Sequence record: OR924452
Direction: 5' to 3' (one strand)
DNA: 64,000 bases
DNA from: Escherichia phage 241
Part shown: piece by piece, positions 30,986 to 41,973 of the stretch
How the letters are laid out: every line of letters begins with the position of its first letter
How positions within the stretch are numbered: position 1 is the first letter of the stretch
The notes under the pieces: generated by a model
What the model saw: the letters and a program-made list of their open reading frames with translations, nothing else
Databases searched by the model: none
What the model was told of the DNA's origin: nothing
Position numbers and translations under genes: made by a program

Positions 30986-31221
30986 CTCGTAATCCCTCCG
31001 GCACAGATAATATTCAGTTCACCGCGACGGAAACCGCCTTGCCCATCGTCCAACTTAGTCAGAAGTGTATGTGCATCTCGAACTTTCTGAGCGAACTCTT
31101 CCGACACCACCAGATGACCCATCAGAGGAGTCTTTTCTTGTTTTGGGGTGGATTCAAAATAGTCACCAAACGTCGCTTCCATATCCAGCACAGACATATC
31201 TTCAATTCGTTGCATTGCCAT
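30982..31221 (-). CDS. hypothetical protein (79 aa)
   Basis: ORF. Confidence 0.35.
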   Translation of the reverse strand: MAMQRIEDMSVLDMEATFGDYFESTPKQEKTPLMGHLVVSEEFAQKVRDAHTLLTKLDDGQGGFRRGELNIICAGGITR

Positions 31222-31240
31222 GATGTATTTCCTTGTAAAA

Positions 31241-31290
31241 GAAAGGGGAACGGGCTAATAATAACCCATTCCCCTTTATTGAAGAACGCA
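31241..31290 (-). terminator. rho-independent terminator preceded by conserved CGTTCTTCAATAAAGGGG motif
   Basis: Hairpin AAAGGGGAA...TTCCCCTTT then CUUUU; second copy of the 28431 element. Confidence 0.4.
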
Positions 31291-31302
31291 ATCGCAGTCA
31301 GA

Positions 31303-35695: not shown

Positions 35696-38692
35696 TCAAC
35701 CTTTCTTGCCCATCATGGACAACAGATTAACTCGACGTTTGTGAGACCAACCAACCACGTCTAGAATAGACTGAATCGGCTCTATGAAGGTCTTTTCAAA
35801 CGTGGTGTGGTAATCTACCCACTTATCCAGCCCCAACTCCGGAGGGAGGAAGTCAGGGAAGGCTATGCGGTCGTTCCCCACAGGGTTCCCAGGTTTCAGG
35901 TTAATGATTTTAACCTTATCGCCAGATTCTATCGGCGGGAGACCGAGGTCTTCATGCTTGTCTATCAGCTTGTTGTACATAATACAAGCCTTGGCAGCAA
36001 AGTGTGTGCCACTGATATAATTTCCGTTGCCGTCTAACCACTTCTCAATATCACTAACGCCAGAGGCTTGAGCAATATCATCCACGGTTAATTCCATATA
36101 TTCCTTCTTATAACCCGCGATCAATTCCTGAACTTCAGCCTCCGTCCCCAGAAGAACTTTCTCATAGCATTTAACCAGACGCTCACGACACCATTCCGGC
36201 GTTGTAGATTTACGCGCTTCCAGACCTTTGAATTTTATCTTTGGCTTCTCATACTTGATGCCTTCGCTATCGTATACCGCCATGCAATACATCTTCTTGG
36301 CTCGCCATACAGCAGACGATGCGATGACCTCACGTTCCCAGACCATGCGCTGCTCAAACCCGTTCATGGTATTACATAACAACTGCGCCCATTCGCTGGT
36401 TTTTGGCTGGTAATTCTCTTTGATCCATTGGTCAATGTTATCAACGAGTTTGTGATGGTCCTTTTCTTCAGGCCACAATTGCTTGACCAGGCGTTCAATG
36501 CAAATGTAGTTGGAGTCAGTATCACCCGCGATAACAAAATCCTGACCAGTAGTGCCGCAAAGTTTGTTCAGATAATCATCGGTGTGGCGTTTGTTCCATT
36601 TGTTGATCAGCTGGCCGGAAGTGGTGATTGCTTCAGCGATGTTGATGTTGAAGTATTCTTTAAACCAGACGTTGGAGATTGCGCCATAACCTGCGTTCAT
36701 CAAGATCTTCAGACCTTGTTGTAACGTGTCTTGAGCAACCCCCAGATCTTCCCACTTGTGCATGACTTCAGTCAGGTGATCAAGATCGATGTGCTTGTGT
36801 TCTTCATACCATTCAGGATCGTAGAAACGAGACTTCATGGCGGACTCAAGGTGGAAATCACCTTTAGACATTTCCTTACACCAACCAGCCCATTGCTCAT
36901 ACTTCAGGCCAGTTGCTTTCTCTCCTTTACGGTCAGCGTATATGCCTCGCATAATTTCGGAAAGGAAGGACATCTTCTCATTACTGAAGAACTGAACGTT
37001 CGGGGTAAACGAAACGTTATATCGGCGTAGTGTTTCAAAATGGAATTCGCCCAGCGCGACCAATTCATCAACAACTTGTATGCGTTCATCAATAGCACGC
37101 TGCAACTTGTCGTGAAGATTTTTGAGATGACGACGTTTATTCATCGGCGTTGTCATATCATTCATCGCTTTGGTCAATTCCTCACACATAGCCTCAATAA
37201 TATCACGGCGTGTGTGCTTATCAGAAACGATAGTCTCTGGACCAAGGTTGTATTGCTGTATGATGTGGGGATACAGGGAGTTTAAGTCCTCAGAGAAGAC
37301 CCAGAAATATATCCCTGGTGCAACCTCCATGACATATGCGCCTTCAAAATCTGTTGGTCCATCATAGACGCGCTGGATTTTCGGGACAATCCCCTTCTCA
37401 TAAAGACGATAATAGCACATCGCCAGCCACGGTGCTACAGTGCCGAGACCGTCTTCATAGTTGGATTTAGTGCGATAAGCCAATACAAACATCAGCTGTA
37501 TCAAACGCAGTTTTTGTTCTAAGCGCCACACCAGCTTGACGTCTTTGATACCATATCGCGTATGCTTGCAATAATCATTGAAATAAAGGTCATACAATGA
37601 TTTGCTTTCACTATAATCCAACTTCTTCTCACCGAGTTCACAATAAGCGATCCAGTCCAGTGAGTATTTTTCGCGGGTGGTGTAAGTGTGTTTCTTGTAC
37701 ACTTGCATGTAGTCCATCATTGGACAACCCACAAACTGATAAGACGTGACGTCGCCTTTACGGTCTTTGATGAAACGTTTCTTCAGTTTACCCCAAGGAC
37801 TGAGACGCTGGGCTTCGGATTCACCAAGAACCTGCGTAATTCGTTCAACCAAATAGGGACTATCGAACGTTTCAATGTTCCACCCCGTCCAACCGTCAAA
37901 TTGACGCTGCGACCAGTAGTTAAGGAATGAACGCAACAGATCCTGCTCGGTGACGAACTCCATATACTCAACCTGAAGCCCACCGATTTCAGGATCGTTC
38001 TCATCATACCTGAACTTCGCGCGATCCTTGGAACACGGCATGCCCCAGACATAGAATTTATTGGTATTCATATCTTGGAGCTGTATCAGCGTAATAGGGA
38101 ACGCCGCATTCATGTTCTGTGTGATTTTACCGTTACTGTCAATTATAGGGAATTGGTCAGTCACGTTGTTGGAAATAAAGGAACCAGGGAAATGCTCCCG
38201 AACGAAATCATGGTTGGCCAGTACTTGCTTATGGAAACGACGAACCCGCGCCTCGCTGCCTTTAAACGTGTGAGATTCAATCGTTGCGTGCGGGAATGGA
38301 CCTTTAGTCATTTCTCCGTCACGCCAACCAGCCGAGAACACTTCGATATCCACGTTGGCGATGTGGATATTTGAATAATCAGGTGTGATCATCCCAGGAA
38401 AACTATGGGCGATGAATTGATATGCATAATCCGTTTGTCCATACACCGCAGCCCCTTCGACCTCCTTGTACTCCTCAAGATAGTTGTCAGCGTCGCGCAT
38501 TGATGCAAACTTTTTAGACACCAACGGTTCGTTGAGGAGGCCAATCTTTTCAACTTTGGAATAATCAGCTGTGGGTAAATACAAGGTGGGTTCGAATTTC
38601 TTACGCAACATGCGGCGATTGCCGTTGTCGTCTGCGATACGAATCAGAAGGTCGTTACCCTGTCGGGCAACGTTCGTATAGAAAACAGTCAT
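35696..38692 (-). CDS. 43: DNA polymerase, family B (T4 gp43-like)
   Basis: N-terminus MTVFYTNVARQG parallels T4 gp43; B-family pol and exonuclease motifs (e.g. YGDTDS); start set at ATG 38692 with GGAG SD. Confidence 0.85.
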   Translation of the reverse strand: MTVFYTNVARQGNDLLIRIADDNGNRRMLRKKFEPTLYLPTADYSKVEKIGLLNEPLVSKKFASMRDADNYLEEYKEVEGAAVYGQTDYAYQFIAHSFPGMITPDYSNIHIANVDIEVFSAGWRDGEMTKGPFPHATIESHTFKGSEARVRRFHKQVLANHDFVREHFPGSFISNNVTDQFPIIDSNGKITQNMNAAFPITLIQLQDMNTNKFYVWGMPCSKDRAKFRYDENDPEIGGLQVEYMEFVTEQDLLRSFLNYWSQRQFDGWTGWNIETFDSPYLVERITQVLGESEAQRLSPWGKLKKRFIKDRKGDVTSYQFVGCPMMDYMQVYKKHTYTTREKYSLDWIAYCELGEKKLDYSESKSLYDLYFNDYCKHTRYGIKDVKLVWRLEQKLRLIQLMFVLAYRTKSNYEDGLGTVAPWLAMCYYRLYEKGIVPKIQRVYDGPTDFEGAYVMEVAPGIYFWVFSEDLNSLYPHIIQQYNLGPETIVSDKHTRRDIIEAMCEELTKAMNDMTTPMNKRRHLKNLHDKLQRAIDERIQVVDELVALGEFHFETLRRYNVSFTPNVQFFSNEKMSFLSEIMRGIYADRKGEKATGLKYEQWAGWCKEMSKGDFHLESAMKSRFYDPEWYEEHKHIDLDHLTEVMHKWEDLGVAQDTLQQGLKILMNAGYGAISNVWFKEYFNINIAEAITTSGQLINKWNKRHTDDYLNKLCGTTGQDFVIAGDTDSNYICIERLVKQLWPEEKDHHKLVDNIDQWIKENYQPKTSEWAQLLCNTMNGFEQRMVWEREVIASSAVWRAKKMYCMAVYDSEGIKYEKPKIKFKGLEARKSTTPEWCRERLVKCYEKVLLGTEAEVQELIAGYKKEYMELTVDDIAQASGVSDIEKWLDGNGNYISGTHFAAKACIMYNKLIDKHEDLGLPPIESGDKVKIINLKPGNPVGNDRIAFPDFLPPELGLDKWVDYHTTFEKTFIEPIQSILDVVGWSHKRRVNLLSMMGKKG

Positions 38693-38699
38693 TGTTTGT

Positions 38700-38740
38700 C
38701 TCCGGTTAACCGTGCCGTCAGCACGTCCCCGTAATTTAAC
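38700..38740 (-). promoter_or_regulatory. 5' leader hairpins (CGUGC-ugacg-GCACG and palindrome CGGUUAACCG) next to polymerase SD; candidate translational operator
   Basis: Hairpin lies just 5' of SD in polymerase leader, analogous to the T4 gene 43 autoregulatory operator. Confidence 0.3.
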
Positions 38741-38771
38741 CGAGGAACGTTCAATGACCAAGGAGTTTAAA

Positions 38772-39344
38772 ATGGCAATCCCCTTTGTGAGCATGATTCC
38801 AGGGGCGCTAAAGCAACTCTGGAATCTTGGGACTGATTTGGTGCAATATAAGCGGGAAATTGTTCAGGCTAAACACGATGTTAAACTGGAGGCAATAAAG
38901 TCTTCTTCAGAATGGGAACTTTCTAAGATTACCGAAGTCGGCGGATCTTGGAAAGATGAATTCTGGACAATCGTTTTGGCTGTTCCCGCTATCCTTGTTA
39001 TGATCGCTCCGGTTGTGGAACTTCTAATGTTCCCCACCGAGTATCATAAAGGGGATTTCATCAAAGCAGTAATTGATGGTATGCAAGCCCTTGAAACAGC
39101 GCCTGATTGGTATACTGCTTCGCTATTGACAGCAATTAGTGCATCATTCGGTATCAAGGGGTACAACCATTACAAAAGCAATAGCCGGAAGGCGCAAGCT
39201 GTGGATGCTCTCAAACAGTTTGGGGTCAAAGTGGTTAACAAAGATCCCACTGTTGTTACTCAGTCGGGTTCTCCCGATCTTGAGTCTGCTCCCCCAGCTG
39301 GGTCTACTGCGACCTCTGGTGCGTGGCCTGATCTGAAGAAATAA
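38772..39344 (+). CDS. membrane protein (190 aa)
   Basis: AAGGAG SD 7 nt before ATG 38772; central transmembrane helix. Confidence 0.4.
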   Translation: MAIPFVSMIPGALKQLWNLGTDLVQYKREIVQAKHDVKLEAIKSSSEWELSKITEVGGSWKDEFWTIVLAVPAILVMIAPVVELLMFPTEYHKGDFIKAVIDGMQALETAPDWYTASLLTAISASFGIKGYNHYKSNSRKAQAVDALKQFGVKVVNKDPTVVTQSGSPDLESAPPAGSTATSGAWPDLKK

Positions 39345-39348
39345 GTTC

Positions 39349-39376
39349 AAGGGGAGGAAACTCCCCTTTCTTTTGG
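39349..39376 (+). terminator. rho-independent terminator (GGGGAG-gaaa-CTCCCC + TTTCTTTT)
   Basis: Hairpin and T-run directly after stop at 39344. Confidence 0.45.
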
Positions 39377-39385
39377 TGTTAGGGA

Positions 39386-39598
39386 ATGAAAGTGGTAAAC
39401 AAGAGATTGCTCGTCACCCAAGGCGGGGCGACGATAGTACGTGGACGGATATATGAACAAACCAAGCTGGGTGATCATAAGACTCGTCTGACGGTTAAAG
39501 CACCCGACGGTGGTTGGCCAACAAAGGTGATTGTCCCAGACGGCCTCATAGAACGAGGGACGGCGACGTATAAGGGTGCAGAGTTCAAAATTTATTAA
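39386..39598 (+). CDS. hypothetical protein (70 aa)
   Basis: ORF; start uncertain. Confidence 0.3.
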   Translation: MKVVNKRLLVTQGGATIVRGRIYEQTKLGDHKTRLTVKAPDGGWPTKVIVPDGLIERGTATYKGAEFKIY

Positions 39599-39693
39599 AA
39601 TATTTATTGAATAAAGTTTACTTCTTCAATAACTGGCGTATACTTCTAATTGTAGTACGAACAAACAACAATCTGAAGAGAAGGAAATACATC

Positions 39694-40251
39694 ATGGCAA
39701 TCGAAATTATCGCTCAATCAAAATCAGGCAAGACTGTAATGTACGGCACTGAAGAAGGCCGCTGCATCATCAACTACGGCACTATCACTGGCGAGTCTCC
39801 AGAGAAAGGTGGTCGCTATCTGGTTGAGTACGGTTCACGCCTCCTGATGGTAAGCAAAGTCGATGGTCGTGAAATCATGATTCCTCGTAAAGAATACTTT
39901 GACTCACGCTCTGCCGCGATGACTTTCTTCCTCTTCCAGAAACGCCACGAACTCTTCGTTGAAGCGAAAGACGCAGGTCTGGACGACGCGACGGCTGAGC
40001 TGATTGCCGAAGGTAAAATGACTCTCGAAGCTGCTCTGGGAGACATGGATTGCGAAGCCGAAGCACATTATATTGAATATTCCGCATATCAGAACGAATG
40101 TGAAGATGATCCGGAAGACGACGGATTCGACCCTGACCTCCACGGCGGCGAAGACGATAACACCCCTTCCTTAGAAGTTCTGATGGCTGGCGGCCAGGCC
40201 GCTTGGGAATGGCAGAACGAGAAGAACGCCTGGCTGGATTCCCGTATCTAA
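39694..40251 (+). CDS. hypothetical protein with highly acidic C-terminus (185 aa)
   Basis: Start set at ATG 39694 (MAIEIIAQSK) with GAAGAGAAGGA SD. Confidence 0.4.
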   Translation: MAIEIIAQSKSGKTVMYGTEEGRCIINYGTITGESPEKGGRYLVEYGSRLLMVSKVDGREIMIPRKEYFDSRSAAMTFFLFQKRHELFVEAKDAGLDDATAELIAEGKMTLEAALGDMDCEAEAHYIEYSAYQNECEDDPEDDGFDPDLHGGEDDNTPSLEVLMAGGQAAWEWQNEKNAWLDSRI

Positions 40252-40256
40252 TTGAC

Positions 40257-40285
40257 TGAAGCCCCTTCGGGGGCTTACTTTGAAC
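40257..40285 (+). terminator. terminator-like hairpin AGCCCC-ttcg-GGGGCT
   Basis: Stem-loop after stop at 40251. Confidence 0.4.
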
Positions 40286-40299
40286 TGAAGGACTATATC

Positions 40300-40452
40300 A
40301 TGATTTTAATCTTATGGTTTGTATTCACATTTCTGGCCATGGCCGACATCGGCAAATATCACGTTCTCCCAAGCGACCTGACCGTCCTACTATACGGCAT
40401 AGTTTCGTTTGTGCTGGGTTCCTTGCGCGCCCATATGAGGACTATATCATGA
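40300..40452 (+). CDS. small membrane protein (50 aa)
   Basis: Start at ATG 40300; hydrophobic helix ILILWFVFTFLAMA; initiation region AGGACTATATCATG duplicated at 40435. Confidence 0.3.
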   Translation: MILILWFVFTFLAMADIGKYHVLPSDLTVLLYGIVSFVLGSLRAHMRTIS

Positions 40453-40994
40453 GCAACCCAAAAACTCCTGTCCGTATCGCTGTTGAGCCTCTGCTGGTTG
40501 ATGCTGAGAATGCTGCTGAGCAGTACGCGAACAAAGTCATCAAGAACATAATGGACGATCTGGCCTCCAACGGCTGGGACGTCGAGAAGTGCGCTCCGTG
40601 GCCGTCTTCGGTTGGCGTCAAGTTTGGTGATCCAGATTACCAACGAATGAAATCAAAACACGCGCTCTACCGTTCTTTAACCCAGGCAGTGAATCCTTCT
40701 TACACACCTGGGAAGCCGGATATTGTCAAAGCTGATCCTGAGCGCCATGCTCTGTTTGTCAAGGAAGCACGTCGAAACGCCGCGATGCAGTATGAGTCTT
40801 TCATTTGTAAACTGGAAAACAAAATTGGTGGTCACAGCGCGGCTGTACTGAATGGTTCCCATGTATGGGGTTATTCAATCCTGACCGTGACTACACCAGA
40901 GGGTATCGAGCGCTGGAAGACTCAGACGATCATCAATGTGTCCAAGCTGGGCAAACTCTTTAACCAATATCCAACGAGGAAGGTGAAGGAGTAA
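40449..40994 (+). CDS. hypothetical protein (181 aa)
   Basis: Start at ATG 40449 overlapping upstream stop (ATGA). Confidence 0.4.
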   Translation: MSNPKTPVRIAVEPLLVDAENAAEQYANKVIKNIMDDLASNGWDVEKCAPWPSSVGVKFGDPDYQRMKSKHALYRSLTQAVNPSYTPGKPDIVKADPERHALFVKEARRNAAMQYESFICKLENKIGGHSAAVLNGSHVWGYSILTVTTPEGIERWKTQTIINVSKLGKLFNQYPTRKVKE

Positions 40995-41029
40995 AATTAG
41001 AACAACAAAGGGGCTTAATGCCCCTTTGT

Positions 41030-41488
41030 TTATTTCCCATCCCAAAAGTCGTCTTCATCGTCTACTTCATCAAACGCAGAATCCAATTCTGCGTCAGAGT
41101 ACTCTGGTAGACGACCATTCTGTTTCAGATATTCAATCTCGTCATCTTCCAATTGAAGATCCGTTGCTATAAACAGTGCTCCGGTCTCTTCATCATGTTC
41201 AATGCTATAAGACGTATATTCAGAACCTTGAACTGTAATGATGATAGATGTTGGATCTTCTGGATCCACGTGAGCTTCAAACGGGATACCGTCAATTGGG
41301 GCGTCTTCTAAGAATGTTGCAAGGGCTACGGCAGCGCGGACAACATCCGTGCCCTGTACCGATGCATAAATTTCTTCTGCACCCGTTTCCCCGCGCTCAA
41401 AGAATTCAATCGTAGTTCCGTCTTGAACCCCAGTCCAGATAGGCATATCTGCTGGTGTATCGGCTTCAAATAATTTTGAAATTGGCAT
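41030..41488 (-). CDS. hypothetical acidic protein (152 aa)
   Basis: ORF, Asp/Glu-rich. Confidence 0.4.
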   Translation of the reverse strand: MPISKLFEADTPADMPIWTGVQDGTTIEFFERGETGAEEIYASVQGTDVVRAAVALATFLEDAPIDGIPFEAHVDPEDPTSIIITVQGSEYTSYSIEHDEETGALFIATDLQLEDDEIEYLKQNGRLPEYSDAELDSAFDEVDDEDDFWDGK

Positions 41489-41523
41489 GTTCGTTTCCTC
41501 TATGGATAAACCTTATGGGATAT

Positions 41524-41973
41524 TTAGGCTTCTCTCTTCGCCAGCCCTGGTTTGAATACCACCATTTCTTCTACGTTATTGGCACTCATAGAGGCTATAG
41601 AATCGAACCCTTTGTTGACAAGTTCTTTCACATTATCATGTATCTTACCAGGCTTTATCCCCAACTCTCGCATTTTATTTTCCCACACCGAAACGTTATT
41701 AGAATCTATCACCAGAGTCTTCTTGGCCTTAACACGAAATGCCATGACAACAGGTTCACCAGATTGACGATAGCGAACGGCGTTTTCCGCGTAGATCTGC
41801 GCTTTTTCTGGATCCCCTGTCAGGTAAAATCCAGCACCCATCGTACCAGAGTCAGTCTGGCCAAATTTTTCAAAATCAAAGACGTCGAATTCAACATTCG
41901 ACCCATGATATAAAACAATATCCGTAAAATCGGGCAATGTTGATTCACGATAGAATTCTAGGAAGGTTTTCAT
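41524..41973 (-). CDS. hypothetical protein (149 aa); possible H-Y-E class ADP-ribosyltransferase-like fold
   Basis: YHGS ... GAGFY ... EEMVVF pattern resembles PARP/Tpt1/DarT-type motifs; preceded by the conserved late leader element. Confidence 0.4.
   Translation of the reverse strand: MKTFLEFYRESTLPDFTDIVLYHGSNVEFDVFDFEKFGQTDSGTMGAGFYLTGDPEKAQIYAENAVRYRQSGEPVVMAFRVKAKKTLVIDSNNVSVWENKMRELGIKPGKIHDNVKELVNKGFDSIASMSANNVEEMVVFKPGLAKREA

What the first reader, a model, noticed from the sequence alone, without database searches (positions are those of the whole stretch)
40286..40452. Duplicated translation-initiation cassette AGGACTATATCATG
The 15-nt sequence preceding the start codons at 40300 and 40449 is identical in 14 positions, suggesting duplication of an initiation region or coupled translation of two small adjacent genes.
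Basis: seen in the sequence. Interest (0 to 1): 0.2.

Follow-up and report, generated by a model that had tools for sequence, protein, structure and literature searches.

The report
Repeated start signal brackets removable gene
Two neighbouring phage genes start with the same 15-base ribosome-binding/start sequence, and related phages show that this repeat marks the exact edges of a small optional membrane-protein gene that has been cleanly lost, swapped or transferred several times; it is a tidy but unsurprising example of how phages shuffle accessory genes.

Summary
The repeat is real. AGGACTATATCATGA (15 nt, exact) lies at 40289-40303 and 40438-40452, 149 bp apart. It is the only direct repeat of 14 nt or more within 400 nt in the window.

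The window is a Kuttervirus (Ackermannviridae, Vi01-like) genome. Each copy is a Shine-Dalgarno + 7-nt spacer + ATG. Copy 1 heads a 50-aa two-helix membrane ORF (phrog_12990, dN/dS about 0.2). Copy 2 heads a 181-aa gene (phrog_4687). The stop and start overlap as ATGA.

Related phages show what the repeat marks:
- In three separate clades, close relatives lack exactly one repeat copy plus the small ORF (149 or 161 bp).
- Two Agtrevirus phages carry an unrelated 54-aa gene between the same two copies.
- The hairpin-TIR-ORF-TIR block is 99% identical between an Agtrevirus and a Kuttervirus whose flanks are 76-89% identical.

So the duplicated initiation region works as two ribosome-binding sites and also bounds a small gene slot. 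The boundary is the likely substrate for precise deletion, replacement and transfer.

The closest analogue is PeSL-mediated shuffling in T4-like phages, but no promoter is present, so it is not a PeSL. Translational coupling is possible but not required. The finding is of modest interest, and the recombination mechanism is inferred, not shown.

The parts
39682..39701 (+). Related initiation region (AGGAAATACATCATGGCAAT) of the upstream 185-aa gene. It belongs to the same family of initiation regions. An identical 20-mer heads another gene at 31214-31233 (-).
39694..40251 (+). 185-aa gene (phrog_4823, function unknown), the upstream neighbour. It was used as the anchor to collect related loci.
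40259..40276 (+). Stable hairpin AAGCCCC-UUCG-GGGGCUU directly after the stop of the 185-aa gene. It is followed by TACTTTGAACTGA, which has a weak U tract. It is conserved across genera. It is the left border of the near-identical transferred block.
   Evidence: The simple terminator scan did not call it.
40289..40303 (+). Copy 1 of the repeat AGGACTATATCATGA: Shine-Dalgarno AAGGA, 7-nt spacer CTATATC, and the ATG of the small ORF.
40300..40452 (+). 50-aa ORF MILILWFVFTFLAMADIGKYHVLPSDLTVLLYGIVSFVLGSLRAHMRTIS. It has two hydrophobic helices and belongs to phrog_12990. It is under purifying selection. Its last five codons (RTIS, stop) are read from repeat copy 2.
40304..40452 (+). The 149-bp unit (small-ORF body plus one repeat copy) that is exactly absent in SS3, Mooltan and other relatives. 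The register is ambiguous within the repeat; 40289-40437 is equivalent.
40438..40452 (+). Copy 2 of the repeat: Shine-Dalgarno GAGGA, spacer, and the ATG of the 181-aa gene. The stop of the small ORF overlaps it as ATGA. The surrounding RNA is predicted to be unstructured.
40449..40994 (+). 181-aa gene (phrog_4687, function unknown). Its N-terminus, M-x-x-PKT(P/A)VR(I/L)AVEPLL, begins at this ATG in all lineages examined.
41004..41030 (.). Bidirectional terminator-like hairpin that closes the + strand gene row against the converging - strand genes. It is the right end of the variable locus.

Best explanation
The 15-nt repeat is a complete translation-initiation region (Shine-Dalgarno, 7-nt spacer, ATG). 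It is used twice in a row, once by a 50-aa membrane-protein gene and once by the 181-aa gene behind it, in a variable accessory-gene locus of an Ackermannviridae (Kuttervirus) phage.

It has two roles. First, each copy serves as its own ribosome-binding site, so either gene can be translated with or without the other. Second, together with the conserved hairpin just upstream, the two copies are short islands of identical sequence bracketing a 'slot' for a small gene.

Misalignment or recombination between the two copies removes the small gene precisely. One intact initiation region is then left fused in frame to the 181-aa gene. Recombination between the same islands in co-infecting relatives replaces or transfers the slot's content.

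Shown here: the repeat; the precise one-copy junctions in three clades; an unrelated gene in the same slot; and a nearly identical cassette inside diverged flanks.

Inferred: the molecular route (replication slippage versus phage recombination machinery); that both ATGs are used in vivo; and how the duplication first arose.
For: Both copies head real genes.
- The small ORF matches phrog_12990 (E = 1e-33). It has diverged alleles with dN/dS of 0.19-0.28.
- The 181-aa gene matches phrog_4687, and its N-terminus starts at copy 2 in every lineage.

Precise loss.
- SS3 and Mooltan lack exactly 149 bp and keep one repeat copy. The two BLAST pieces overlap by the 15-nt repeat.

Loss recurs.
- In neighbour-joining trees of both flanks, genomes with and without the ORF are interleaved.
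- There are three sister pairs, each with its own small-ORF allele: UTK0005/Mooltan, PM10/L018 and XDRKpn-1/L022. Flanks are 97-99% identical, with one-copy junctions and piece overlaps of 15 or 23 nt.

Both copies are old.
- They are present in Kuttervirus, in Agtrevirus and in a Klebsiella phage as TGAAGGACTATAT[C/T]ATGA.

Replacement.
- Agtrevirus SKML-39 and MK-13 hold an unrelated 54-aa gene between the same two copies.
- Flanks are 94-98% identical to Agtrevirus P46FS4, which holds the membrane ORF instead.

Transfer.
- Between P46FS4 and Kuttervirus PM10, the hairpin + copy 1 + ORF + copy 2 block has 2 mismatches in about 210 nt.
- The left flank is 76-89% identical. The right flank drops to 76% starting 5 nt after the ATG of copy 2.

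Support from neighbouring junctions.
- L092 lost the 185-aa gene through the AGGA shared by two initiation regions.
- The same hairpin + initiation module heads a different gene at a second locus in Klebsiella phages.

Frequency.
- In an evenly spaced sample of 60 of 215 records, about 23 have a cassette and about 31 do not.
- 74-78 records hold the membrane ORF, and 7 hold a close copy (>90% identity) of the other cassette.
Against: - No experiment or read-level data shows deletion or circle formation. The mechanism rests on comparative junctions only.
- The window holds only two copies of this initiation region, so it is not a dispersed element in this genome.
- Ordinary homologous recombination in the long, conserved flanking genes could move either allele between phages without any role for the 15-nt repeat.
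- In the CBA120/window comparison the identity break lies inside the 185-aa gene, not at the repeat. The SS3/Marshall identity shift is also about 370 nt upstream of the repeat.
- Another indel at the same locus, a 375-nt gene after the 181-aa gene, has no flanking repeat. Repeats are therefore not needed for gene turnover here.
- Initiation regions in this operon are conserved in general. Part of the 'island' signal at the borders is plain constraint.
Confidence: 0.7

Rival explanations
1. Shared translational operator. The identical region is the binding site of a phage translational repressor or small RNA that co-regulates both genes, as T4 RegA binds initiation regions. The repeat exists because of that regulation, and the indel borders are incidental.
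For: The 7-nt spacer, not only the Shine-Dalgarno and ATG, is invariant apart from one C/T. This holds in both copies across lineages whose small ORFs differ by dS of 0.5-1.2. A near-identical module heads another gene in Klebsiella phages.
Against: The initiation region of the neighbouring 185-aa gene is just as invariant, so spacer conservation is not special to this motif. tblastn with a T4 RegA sequence recalled from memory found nothing in the window; this is a weak test covering 64 kb only. No structure or partner sequence was found. This rival does not explain the precise one-copy junctions. It is not exclusive of the main explanation.
Confidence: 0.12
2. Single historical insertion with a target duplication. 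The small gene was inserted once by a mobile element or illegitimate event that duplicated the target. The repeat is only a scar with no continuing role.
For: A direct repeat flanks an optional segment, and the short form has one copy. This is the formal signature of a target-site duplication.
Against: The insert has no terminal inverted repeats and there is no transposase or homing endonuclease nearby. The duplicated stretch is 15-23 nt, longer than usual target duplications. Three diverged alleles and an unrelated gene occupy the same slot with the same borders. Presence and absence are interleaved on the flank trees.
Confidence: 0.06
3. Tandem duplication of the 5' end of the 181-aa gene. 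The upstream copy then diverged into a new small ORF and only the selected initiation region stayed identical.
For: The period (149 bp) begins and ends at the same point of the initiation region.
Against: There is no residual similarity between the small-ORF body and the first 134 nt of the 181-aa gene. In-register identity is 26% against a null of 25%. The local alignment score is 14.0 against a shuffle mean of 14.6 (sd 2.2), and 69% of shuffles score at least as high. In CRW-SP2 the small ORF stands alone without the 181-aa gene.
Confidence: 0.04
4. Chance resemblance of two strong ribosome-binding sites, with no further meaning.
For: 14-mers repeated somewhere in the window are common (55 repeated 14-mers on one strand). 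One search's shuffle test with 2 mismatches is not significant. GAAGGACTATAT[CT]ATG also heads genes in unrelated viral contigs.
Against: A close 15-mer repeat arises in under 2% of simulated windows. Both copies are in register with start codons. The repeat is conserved in both positions across genera and coincides exactly with indel and replacement borders.
Confidence: 0.03

Closest known systems
PeSL (promoter-early stem-loop) cassettes of T4-type phages (Arbiol et al. 2010, PMC2839356; Comeau et al. 2014, PMC4122927)
   Same: Both are short conserved regulatory sequences ending in a Shine-Dalgarno and ATG. Both flank small genes of unknown function in variable regions. A gene flanked by two copies in one phage is replaced by a single copy in a close relative, and unrelated genes are swapped at the same site. 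In both cases the proposed mechanism is homologous recombination between the short copies. Here, as there, a G/C-rich stem-loop lies next to one copy.
   Different: PeSLs are about 100 bp, contain a strong sigma-70-like early promoter, and occur many times per genome. Here the repeated part is 15-23 nt of initiation region only. No promoter-like site adjoins either copy. The hairpin accompanies copy 1 only. There are just two copies in 64 kb. The phage family is different (Ackermannviridae). Excised circles were shown for PeSLs and were not tested here.
Deletion between short direct repeats by slipped mispairing or short-homology recombination (classic in E. coli lacI, T4 rII and T7; from my own knowledge, not re-read here)
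   Same: The long form has two direct repeats, and the short form keeps exactly one copy with nothing else changed. The repeats are close together (149-161 bp). The loss recurs.
   Different: Here the repeat is itself a functional initiation region, so deletion yields a correctly expressed downstream gene. The same borders also serve for replacement and inter-genus transfer, which simple slippage does not explain.
Translationally coupled overlapping genes (ATGA stop/start overlap)
   Same: In this window the small ORF's TGA overlaps the ATG of the 181-aa gene.
   Different: The downstream gene has its own full Shine-Dalgarno and is expressed from it alone in relatives without the small ORF. 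In other alleles the stop is 11 nt upstream of the ATG. The overlap in this window results from a 12-nt shorter 3' end of this allele.
Morons and the 'linker sequence' idea of modular phage evolution (as discussed in PMC2839356)
   Same: An optional single gene is added between two resident genes, and conserved boundary sequences sit at the module joints.
   Different: A moron brings its own promoter and terminator and needs no flanking homology. This cassette brings only an initiation region and sits inside an existing transcription unit.

Membership tests
PeSL regulatory cassette (T4-type phages) | Contains a sigma-70-like early promoter (-35/-10 with an AT-rich upstream region) | tested here: not met
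   The consensus scan of 38600-41600 found no promoter-like site between the hairpin and copy 1 or near copy 2. Only 12 nt separate the hairpin (40259-40276) from copy 1 (40289).
PeSL regulatory cassette (T4-type phages) | Contains a stable G/C-rich stem-loop acting as terminator or attenuator | tested here: inconclusive
   Copy 1 is preceded by a 7-bp GC-rich hairpin with a UUCG loop. Copy 2 has none, and its surroundings fold worse than shuffles (z = +1.7). Terminator activity was not tested, and the U tract is weak.
PeSL regulatory cassette (T4-type phages) | Ends in the Shine-Dalgarno and start codon of the downstream gene | tested here: met
   Both copies are AGGA + 7 nt + ATG heading conserved ORFs.
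PeSL regulatory cassette (T4-type phages) | Many copies dispersed through hyperplastic regions of one genome | tested here: not met
   There are only two copies in the 64-kb window, even with 2-4 mismatches allowed. A related 20-nt initiation region occurs twice. A second hairpin + initiation module exists in Klebsiella phages only.
PeSL regulatory cassette (T4-type phages) | Flanks optional genes: two copies plus the gene in one phage, a single copy in a close relative, and replacement by unrelated genes | tested here: met
PeSL regulatory cassette (T4-type phages) | Recombination between copies yields excised mini-circles | not testable with these tools
   This needs inverse PCR on infected cells or virions.
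Short-direct-repeat deletion | Direct repeats bound the segment in the long form; the short form keeps exactly one copy with no other change at the junction | tested here: met
   Alignments. BLAST pieces overlap by 15 nt or 23 nt.
Short-direct-repeat deletion | Independent recurrence at the same repeat pair | tested here: met
   There are three sister pairs with and without the ORF in different clades, each with its own ORF allele. This is inferred from small neighbour-joining trees, and spread by recombination is not fully excluded.
Translational coupling | Stop of the upstream ORF overlaps or abuts the start of the downstream ORF | tested here: met
   ATGA at 40449-40452.
Translational coupling | Downstream initiation depends on translation of the upstream ORF | not testable with these tools
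   Dependence is unlikely. The gene has its own Shine-Dalgarno in an unstructured context, and the same initiation region works alone in genomes without the small ORF.
Transposable element with target-site duplication | Terminal inverted repeats and an element-encoded or associated transposase or endonuclease | tested here: not met
   There are no inverted repeats at the insert ends. The neighbouring proteins have no such domains.

The most novel reading that the evidence does not exclude
In Ackermannviridae, initiation regions of one sequence family act as general 'linkers' for exchanging cassettes. The family is roughly (C)TGAAGGA-N-TAYATCATG, often just after a hairpin, sometimes with the first few codons. 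Genes carrying them could be excised, possibly as circles, and re-inserted at any other copy, within and between genera. This would be a promoter-less counterpart of the T4 PeSL system. It would explain why unrelated genes share identical initiation regions and first codons.
Probability: 0.25. Interest if true: 0.5.

Novelty: new variant of a known kind. Interest (0 to 1): 0.3.

Why it matters
The locus is a clean natural example of gain, loss, replacement and inter-genus transfer of a small phage gene. All events happen at the same 15-23-nt borders, and those borders are also the genes' ribosome-binding sites.

If the borders really guide recombination, this extends the PeSL idea. That idea holds that short regulatory sequences act as linkers for modular shuffling. 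The extension would be to a second phage family and to a much smaller element with no promoter.

In practice, it flags the 50-aa membrane gene as dispensable and unstable, since about 60% of the relatives sampled lack any gene in the slot. This matters for Kuttervirus phages used in therapy and biocontrol. It also suggests a ready-made insertion slot for engineering.

It does not open a long-standing question. The underlying processes are well known.

Tried and rejected
- Tandem-duplication origin. The small-ORF body and the 5' end of the 181-aa gene show no similarity above shuffles.
- Transposon-like insertion. There are no inverted repeats at the ends and no mobility genes nearby.
- PeSL membership. 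The promoter scan was negative, and the motif is not dispersed in the window.
- RegA-type operator. tblastn of a T4 RegA sequence written from memory gave only noise in the window. This was a lead, not a fair test, because the rest of the genome was not searched.
- Special spacer conservation. It was rejected as evidence because the neighbouring gene's initiation region is equally invariant.
- RNA structure sequestering the initiation regions. Only the upstream hairpin is robust, and copy 2 lies in unstructured RNA.
- The repeat as the breakpoint of the SS3/Marshall and CBA120/window identity shifts. The shifts lie inside the 185-aa gene, hundreds of nt upstream.
- A second indel at the locus (the 375-nt gene) was checked for flanking repeats. 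None were found.
- Function of the proteins. Pfam gave only sub-threshold noise, and PHROGs families are all 'unknown function'. The large protein search returned only two near-identical phage proteins.
- The exact-pattern scan of IMG/VR returned mostly unrelated contigs. These say little beyond the motif being a common good ribosome-binding site.
- Literature searches found no description of this locus and no Kuttervirus transcriptome or ribosome-profiling data.

Full report
**What is there.** The window matches Vi01-like phages of the genus Kuttervirus (Ackermannviridae). The 2.3 kb around the finding is 99.2% identical to Escherichia phage ECML-4 and Salmonella phage vB_SenM-AKM_ssTn.

The sequence AGGACTATATCATGA occurs at 40289-40303 and again at 40438-40452, both on the + strand and 149 bp apart. 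Only the last 11 of the 15 bases before each ATG are identical. The identity then continues through ATG and the next A, giving 15 exact bases.

There is no third copy in the window, even with 2-4 mismatches allowed. It is the only direct repeat of 14 nt or more within 400 nt in the window. Such a close 15-mer repeat arose in 1.7% of 300 simulated windows. By itself that is suggestive, not conclusive.

**Anatomy.** The + strand carries a row of genes in this order:
- a 185-aa gene (39694-40251, phrog_4823);
- a stable hairpin with a UUCG loop (40259-40276);
- copy 1 of the repeat;
- a 50-aa ORF (40300-40452);
- copy 2 of the repeat;
- a 181-aa gene (40449-40994, phrog_4687);
- a bidirectional terminator-like hairpin (41004-41030) facing converging - strand genes.

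Each repeat copy reads as a Shine-Dalgarno (AAGGA or GAGGA), a 7-nt spacer (CTATATC) and ATG.

The 50-aa product has two hydrophobic stretches separated by a conserved ADIGKYH..PSDL loop. It belongs to phrog_12990, of unknown function. Its last five codons are read from copy 2, and its TGA overlaps the next ATG as ATGA. No sigma-70-like promoter adjoins either copy. The RNA around copy 2 is predicted to be unstructured.

**The decisive comparison.** Salmonella phages SS3 and Mooltan align base for base with the window on both sides. They lack exactly 149 bp, which is the small ORF plus one repeat copy. In them the single remaining AGGACTATATCATG is fused directly to the 181-aa gene. The two BLAST pieces overlap by the 15-nt repeat.

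The small ORF is not a recent oddity. It exists as three diverged alleles:
- Vi01/CBA120 type, 50 aa;
- PM10/SFP10 type, 49 aa, 68% identical;
- Klebsiella phage XDRKpn-1 type, 62% identical.

A more distant form occurs in CRW-SP2. Pairwise dN/dS is 0.19-0.28 at dS of 0.5-1.2, so it is a real gene under purifying selection.

In the PM10 and Klebsiella alleles both repeat copies are again present, as TGAAGGACTATAT[C/T]ATGA. There the ORF's stop is the TGA directly in front of AGGA. The ATGA overlap in this window comes from a 12-nt shorter 3' end of its allele.

**Recurrent precise loss.** Neighbour-joining trees were built from the 400 nt upstream and from the 181-aa gene. In both, genomes with and without the small ORF are interleaved.

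Three sister pairs stand out, each with its own ORF allele:
- UTK0005 / Mooltan;
- PM10 / L018;
- XDRKpn-1 / L022.

Flanks in these pairs are 97-99% identical. Each junction keeps exactly one copy, and the two BLAST pieces overlap by 15 or 23 nt. Three independent in-place deletions between the repeat copies is the simplest reading. Independent insertions of lineage-matched alleles would be far less parsimonious.

In an evenly spaced sample of 60 of 215 matching phage records:
- about 23 carry a cassette;
- about 31 have the single-copy junction;
- 6 have other arrangements.

In total, 74-78 records hold the membrane ORF.

**Replacement and transfer.**
- *Replacement.* Agtrevirus SKML-39 and MK-13 carry an unrelated, non-membrane 54-aa gene (MAIEYTESEH...VSE) between the same two copies (TGAAGGACTATATCATG twice). 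It shares the last bases TCTGAATGA with the PM10-type membrane ORF. Their flanks are 94-98% identical to Agtrevirus P46FS4, which carries the membrane ORF in the slot instead. The difference begins right after the ATG of copy 1 and ends about 7 nt before copy 2.
- *Transfer.* P46FS4 (Agtrevirus) and PM10 (Kuttervirus) differ by only 2 of about 210 nt across hairpin, copy 1, ORF and copy 2. To the left they are 76-89% identical. To the right they drop to 76% starting 5 nt after the ATG of copy 2. The cassette has therefore moved between genera more recently than its flanks diverged, and the right breakpoint is at copy 2.

**Other arrangements at the locus.**
- The small ORF alone, without the 181-aa gene (CRW-SP2).
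- Neither gene (L010, L021, L023), with a decayed relic of the initiation region in L021 and L023.
- A different 128-aa gene behind the same initiation region, sharing its first seven codons with the 181-aa gene (AG3).
- Loss of the 185-aa gene through the AGGA shared by two initiation regions (L092).

**How it most likely works.** Each copy is a self-sufficient ribosome-binding site. This is why either gene can stand alone behind it.

Because the two copies are identical and only about 150 bp apart, misalignment during replication or short-homology recombination removes the small gene cleanly. The downstream gene stays correctly expressed. The same conserved islands (hairpin + copy 1, and copy 2 + the first conserved codons) offer crossover points between co-infecting relatives. 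This explains the replacement and the transfer.

These steps are inferred from junctions and were not observed. My confidence is about 0.7.

Translational coupling through the ATGA overlap is possible in this window. It is not needed, and it is absent in the other alleles.

**Caveats.**
- Long homologous flanks could move either allele without any help from the repeat.
- Two identity shifts I examined lie inside the 185-aa gene rather than at the repeat.
- A neighbouring 375-nt gene comes and goes without flanking repeats.
- Initiation regions of this operon are conserved in general. Their conservation alone does not imply a special recombination or operator function.

**Comparison with what is known.** The closest described system is the PeSL cassette of T4-type phages. 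PeSLs are short promoter + stem-loop + Shine-Dalgarno/ATG motifs. They flank optional genes, leave one copy when the gene is absent, mediate replacement by unrelated genes, and yield excised circles (PMC2839356; PMC4122927).

The behaviour here is the same, but membership fails. There is no promoter, the hairpin accompanies one copy only, there are two copies rather than many, and the repeat is 15-23 nt rather than about 100 nt.

The loss events also fit the classic pattern of deletion between short direct repeats (my own knowledge; suitable open papers were not found). A review of Ackermannviridae mentions recombination only for tail-spike genes. I found no description of this locus.

**Verdict.** The feature is a functional initiation region used twice that also bounds a small, unstable, exchangeable gene slot. 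It is a new variant of a known kind of phage genome plasticity and is of modest interest (0.3).

Noticed in passing
window 31214-31233 (-) and 39682-39701 (+): A second reused initiation region. The 20-mer AGGAAATACATCATGGCAAT (Shine-Dalgarno, spacer, ATG and the first codons) heads both the 185-aa gene at 39694 and an unrelated 79-aa gene at 31221 on the other strand, which also sits just after a terminator hairpin. None of 100 shuffles gave any match.
   Followed up: partly
window about 31221-31300 (-); L111 (SS9) 779-970; L112 (Marshall) 781-972: A second variable slot. SS9 and Marshall carry a 63-aa gene (MTPQYKIL...) between the terminator hairpin and the 79-aa gene, and the window lacks it. 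In those phages the 79-aa gene is headed by GAGGTCCTATATCATG, close to the repeat studied here. The junction is not a clean direct-repeat deletion.
   Followed up: partly
window 40985-41010; L003 (UTK0005) 2189-2563: A 124-aa gene (phrog_6044) follows the 181-aa gene in UTK0005, Mooltan, PM10 and CBA120 but is absent from the window. No direct repeat flanks this indel.
   Followed up: yes
L027 (Klebsiella phage XDRKpn-1, record 83.4 kb) 1505-1548; L030 (TTM-TASP117) about 1200-1250: The same hairpin + initiation module (GAAGCCCCTYCGGGGGCTTACTTTGAAACGAAGGAACTATATYATGA) occurs at a second, unrelated locus in Klebsiella phages and heads a 140-aa gene. None of the six proteins tested from that locus has a homologue in the window.
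   Followed up: partly
L028 (Shigella phage AG3) 1242-1628: A 128-aa gene sits behind the same initiation region and shares its first seven codons (MTMPKTP) with the 181-aa gene before diverging completely. It looks like a gene replacement with the joint just inside the coding region. Likewise, the SKML-39 cassette shares its first four codons (ATGGCAATCGAA) with the 185-aa gene.
   Followed up: no
L092 (IMG/VR 3300045988_107072) 780-870: The 185-aa gene and the hairpin are missing. The upstream part of that gene's initiation region is joined through AGGA to CTATATCATG and the 181-aa gene. This is a deletion through the microhomology of two initiation regions.
   Followed up: partly
window 39694-40000 compared with L113 (CBA120), L002 (SS3), L009: The 5' half of the 185-aa gene is a mosaic patch. 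It is only about 76% identical between phages whose 3' half and downstream region are 97-100% identical.
   Followed up: no
L034, L036, L043, L046, L049 and other IMG/VR contigs: The motif GAAGGACTATATTATG heads clamp-loader-like genes (M..EKYRPK...) in many unrelated environmental viral contigs. The sequence is evidently a widely used ribosome-binding site and not something unique to this family.
   Followed up: no
L029 (Dickeya phage Kamild) 1200-1300: In this Limestonevirus the 185-aa gene, the small ORF and the 181-aa gene are all absent. The hairpin and TACTTTGAACTGAA remain, and the sequence breaks off exactly where the initiation region would begin. The record also notes that the adjacent DNA polymerase may contain introns.
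   Followed up: no
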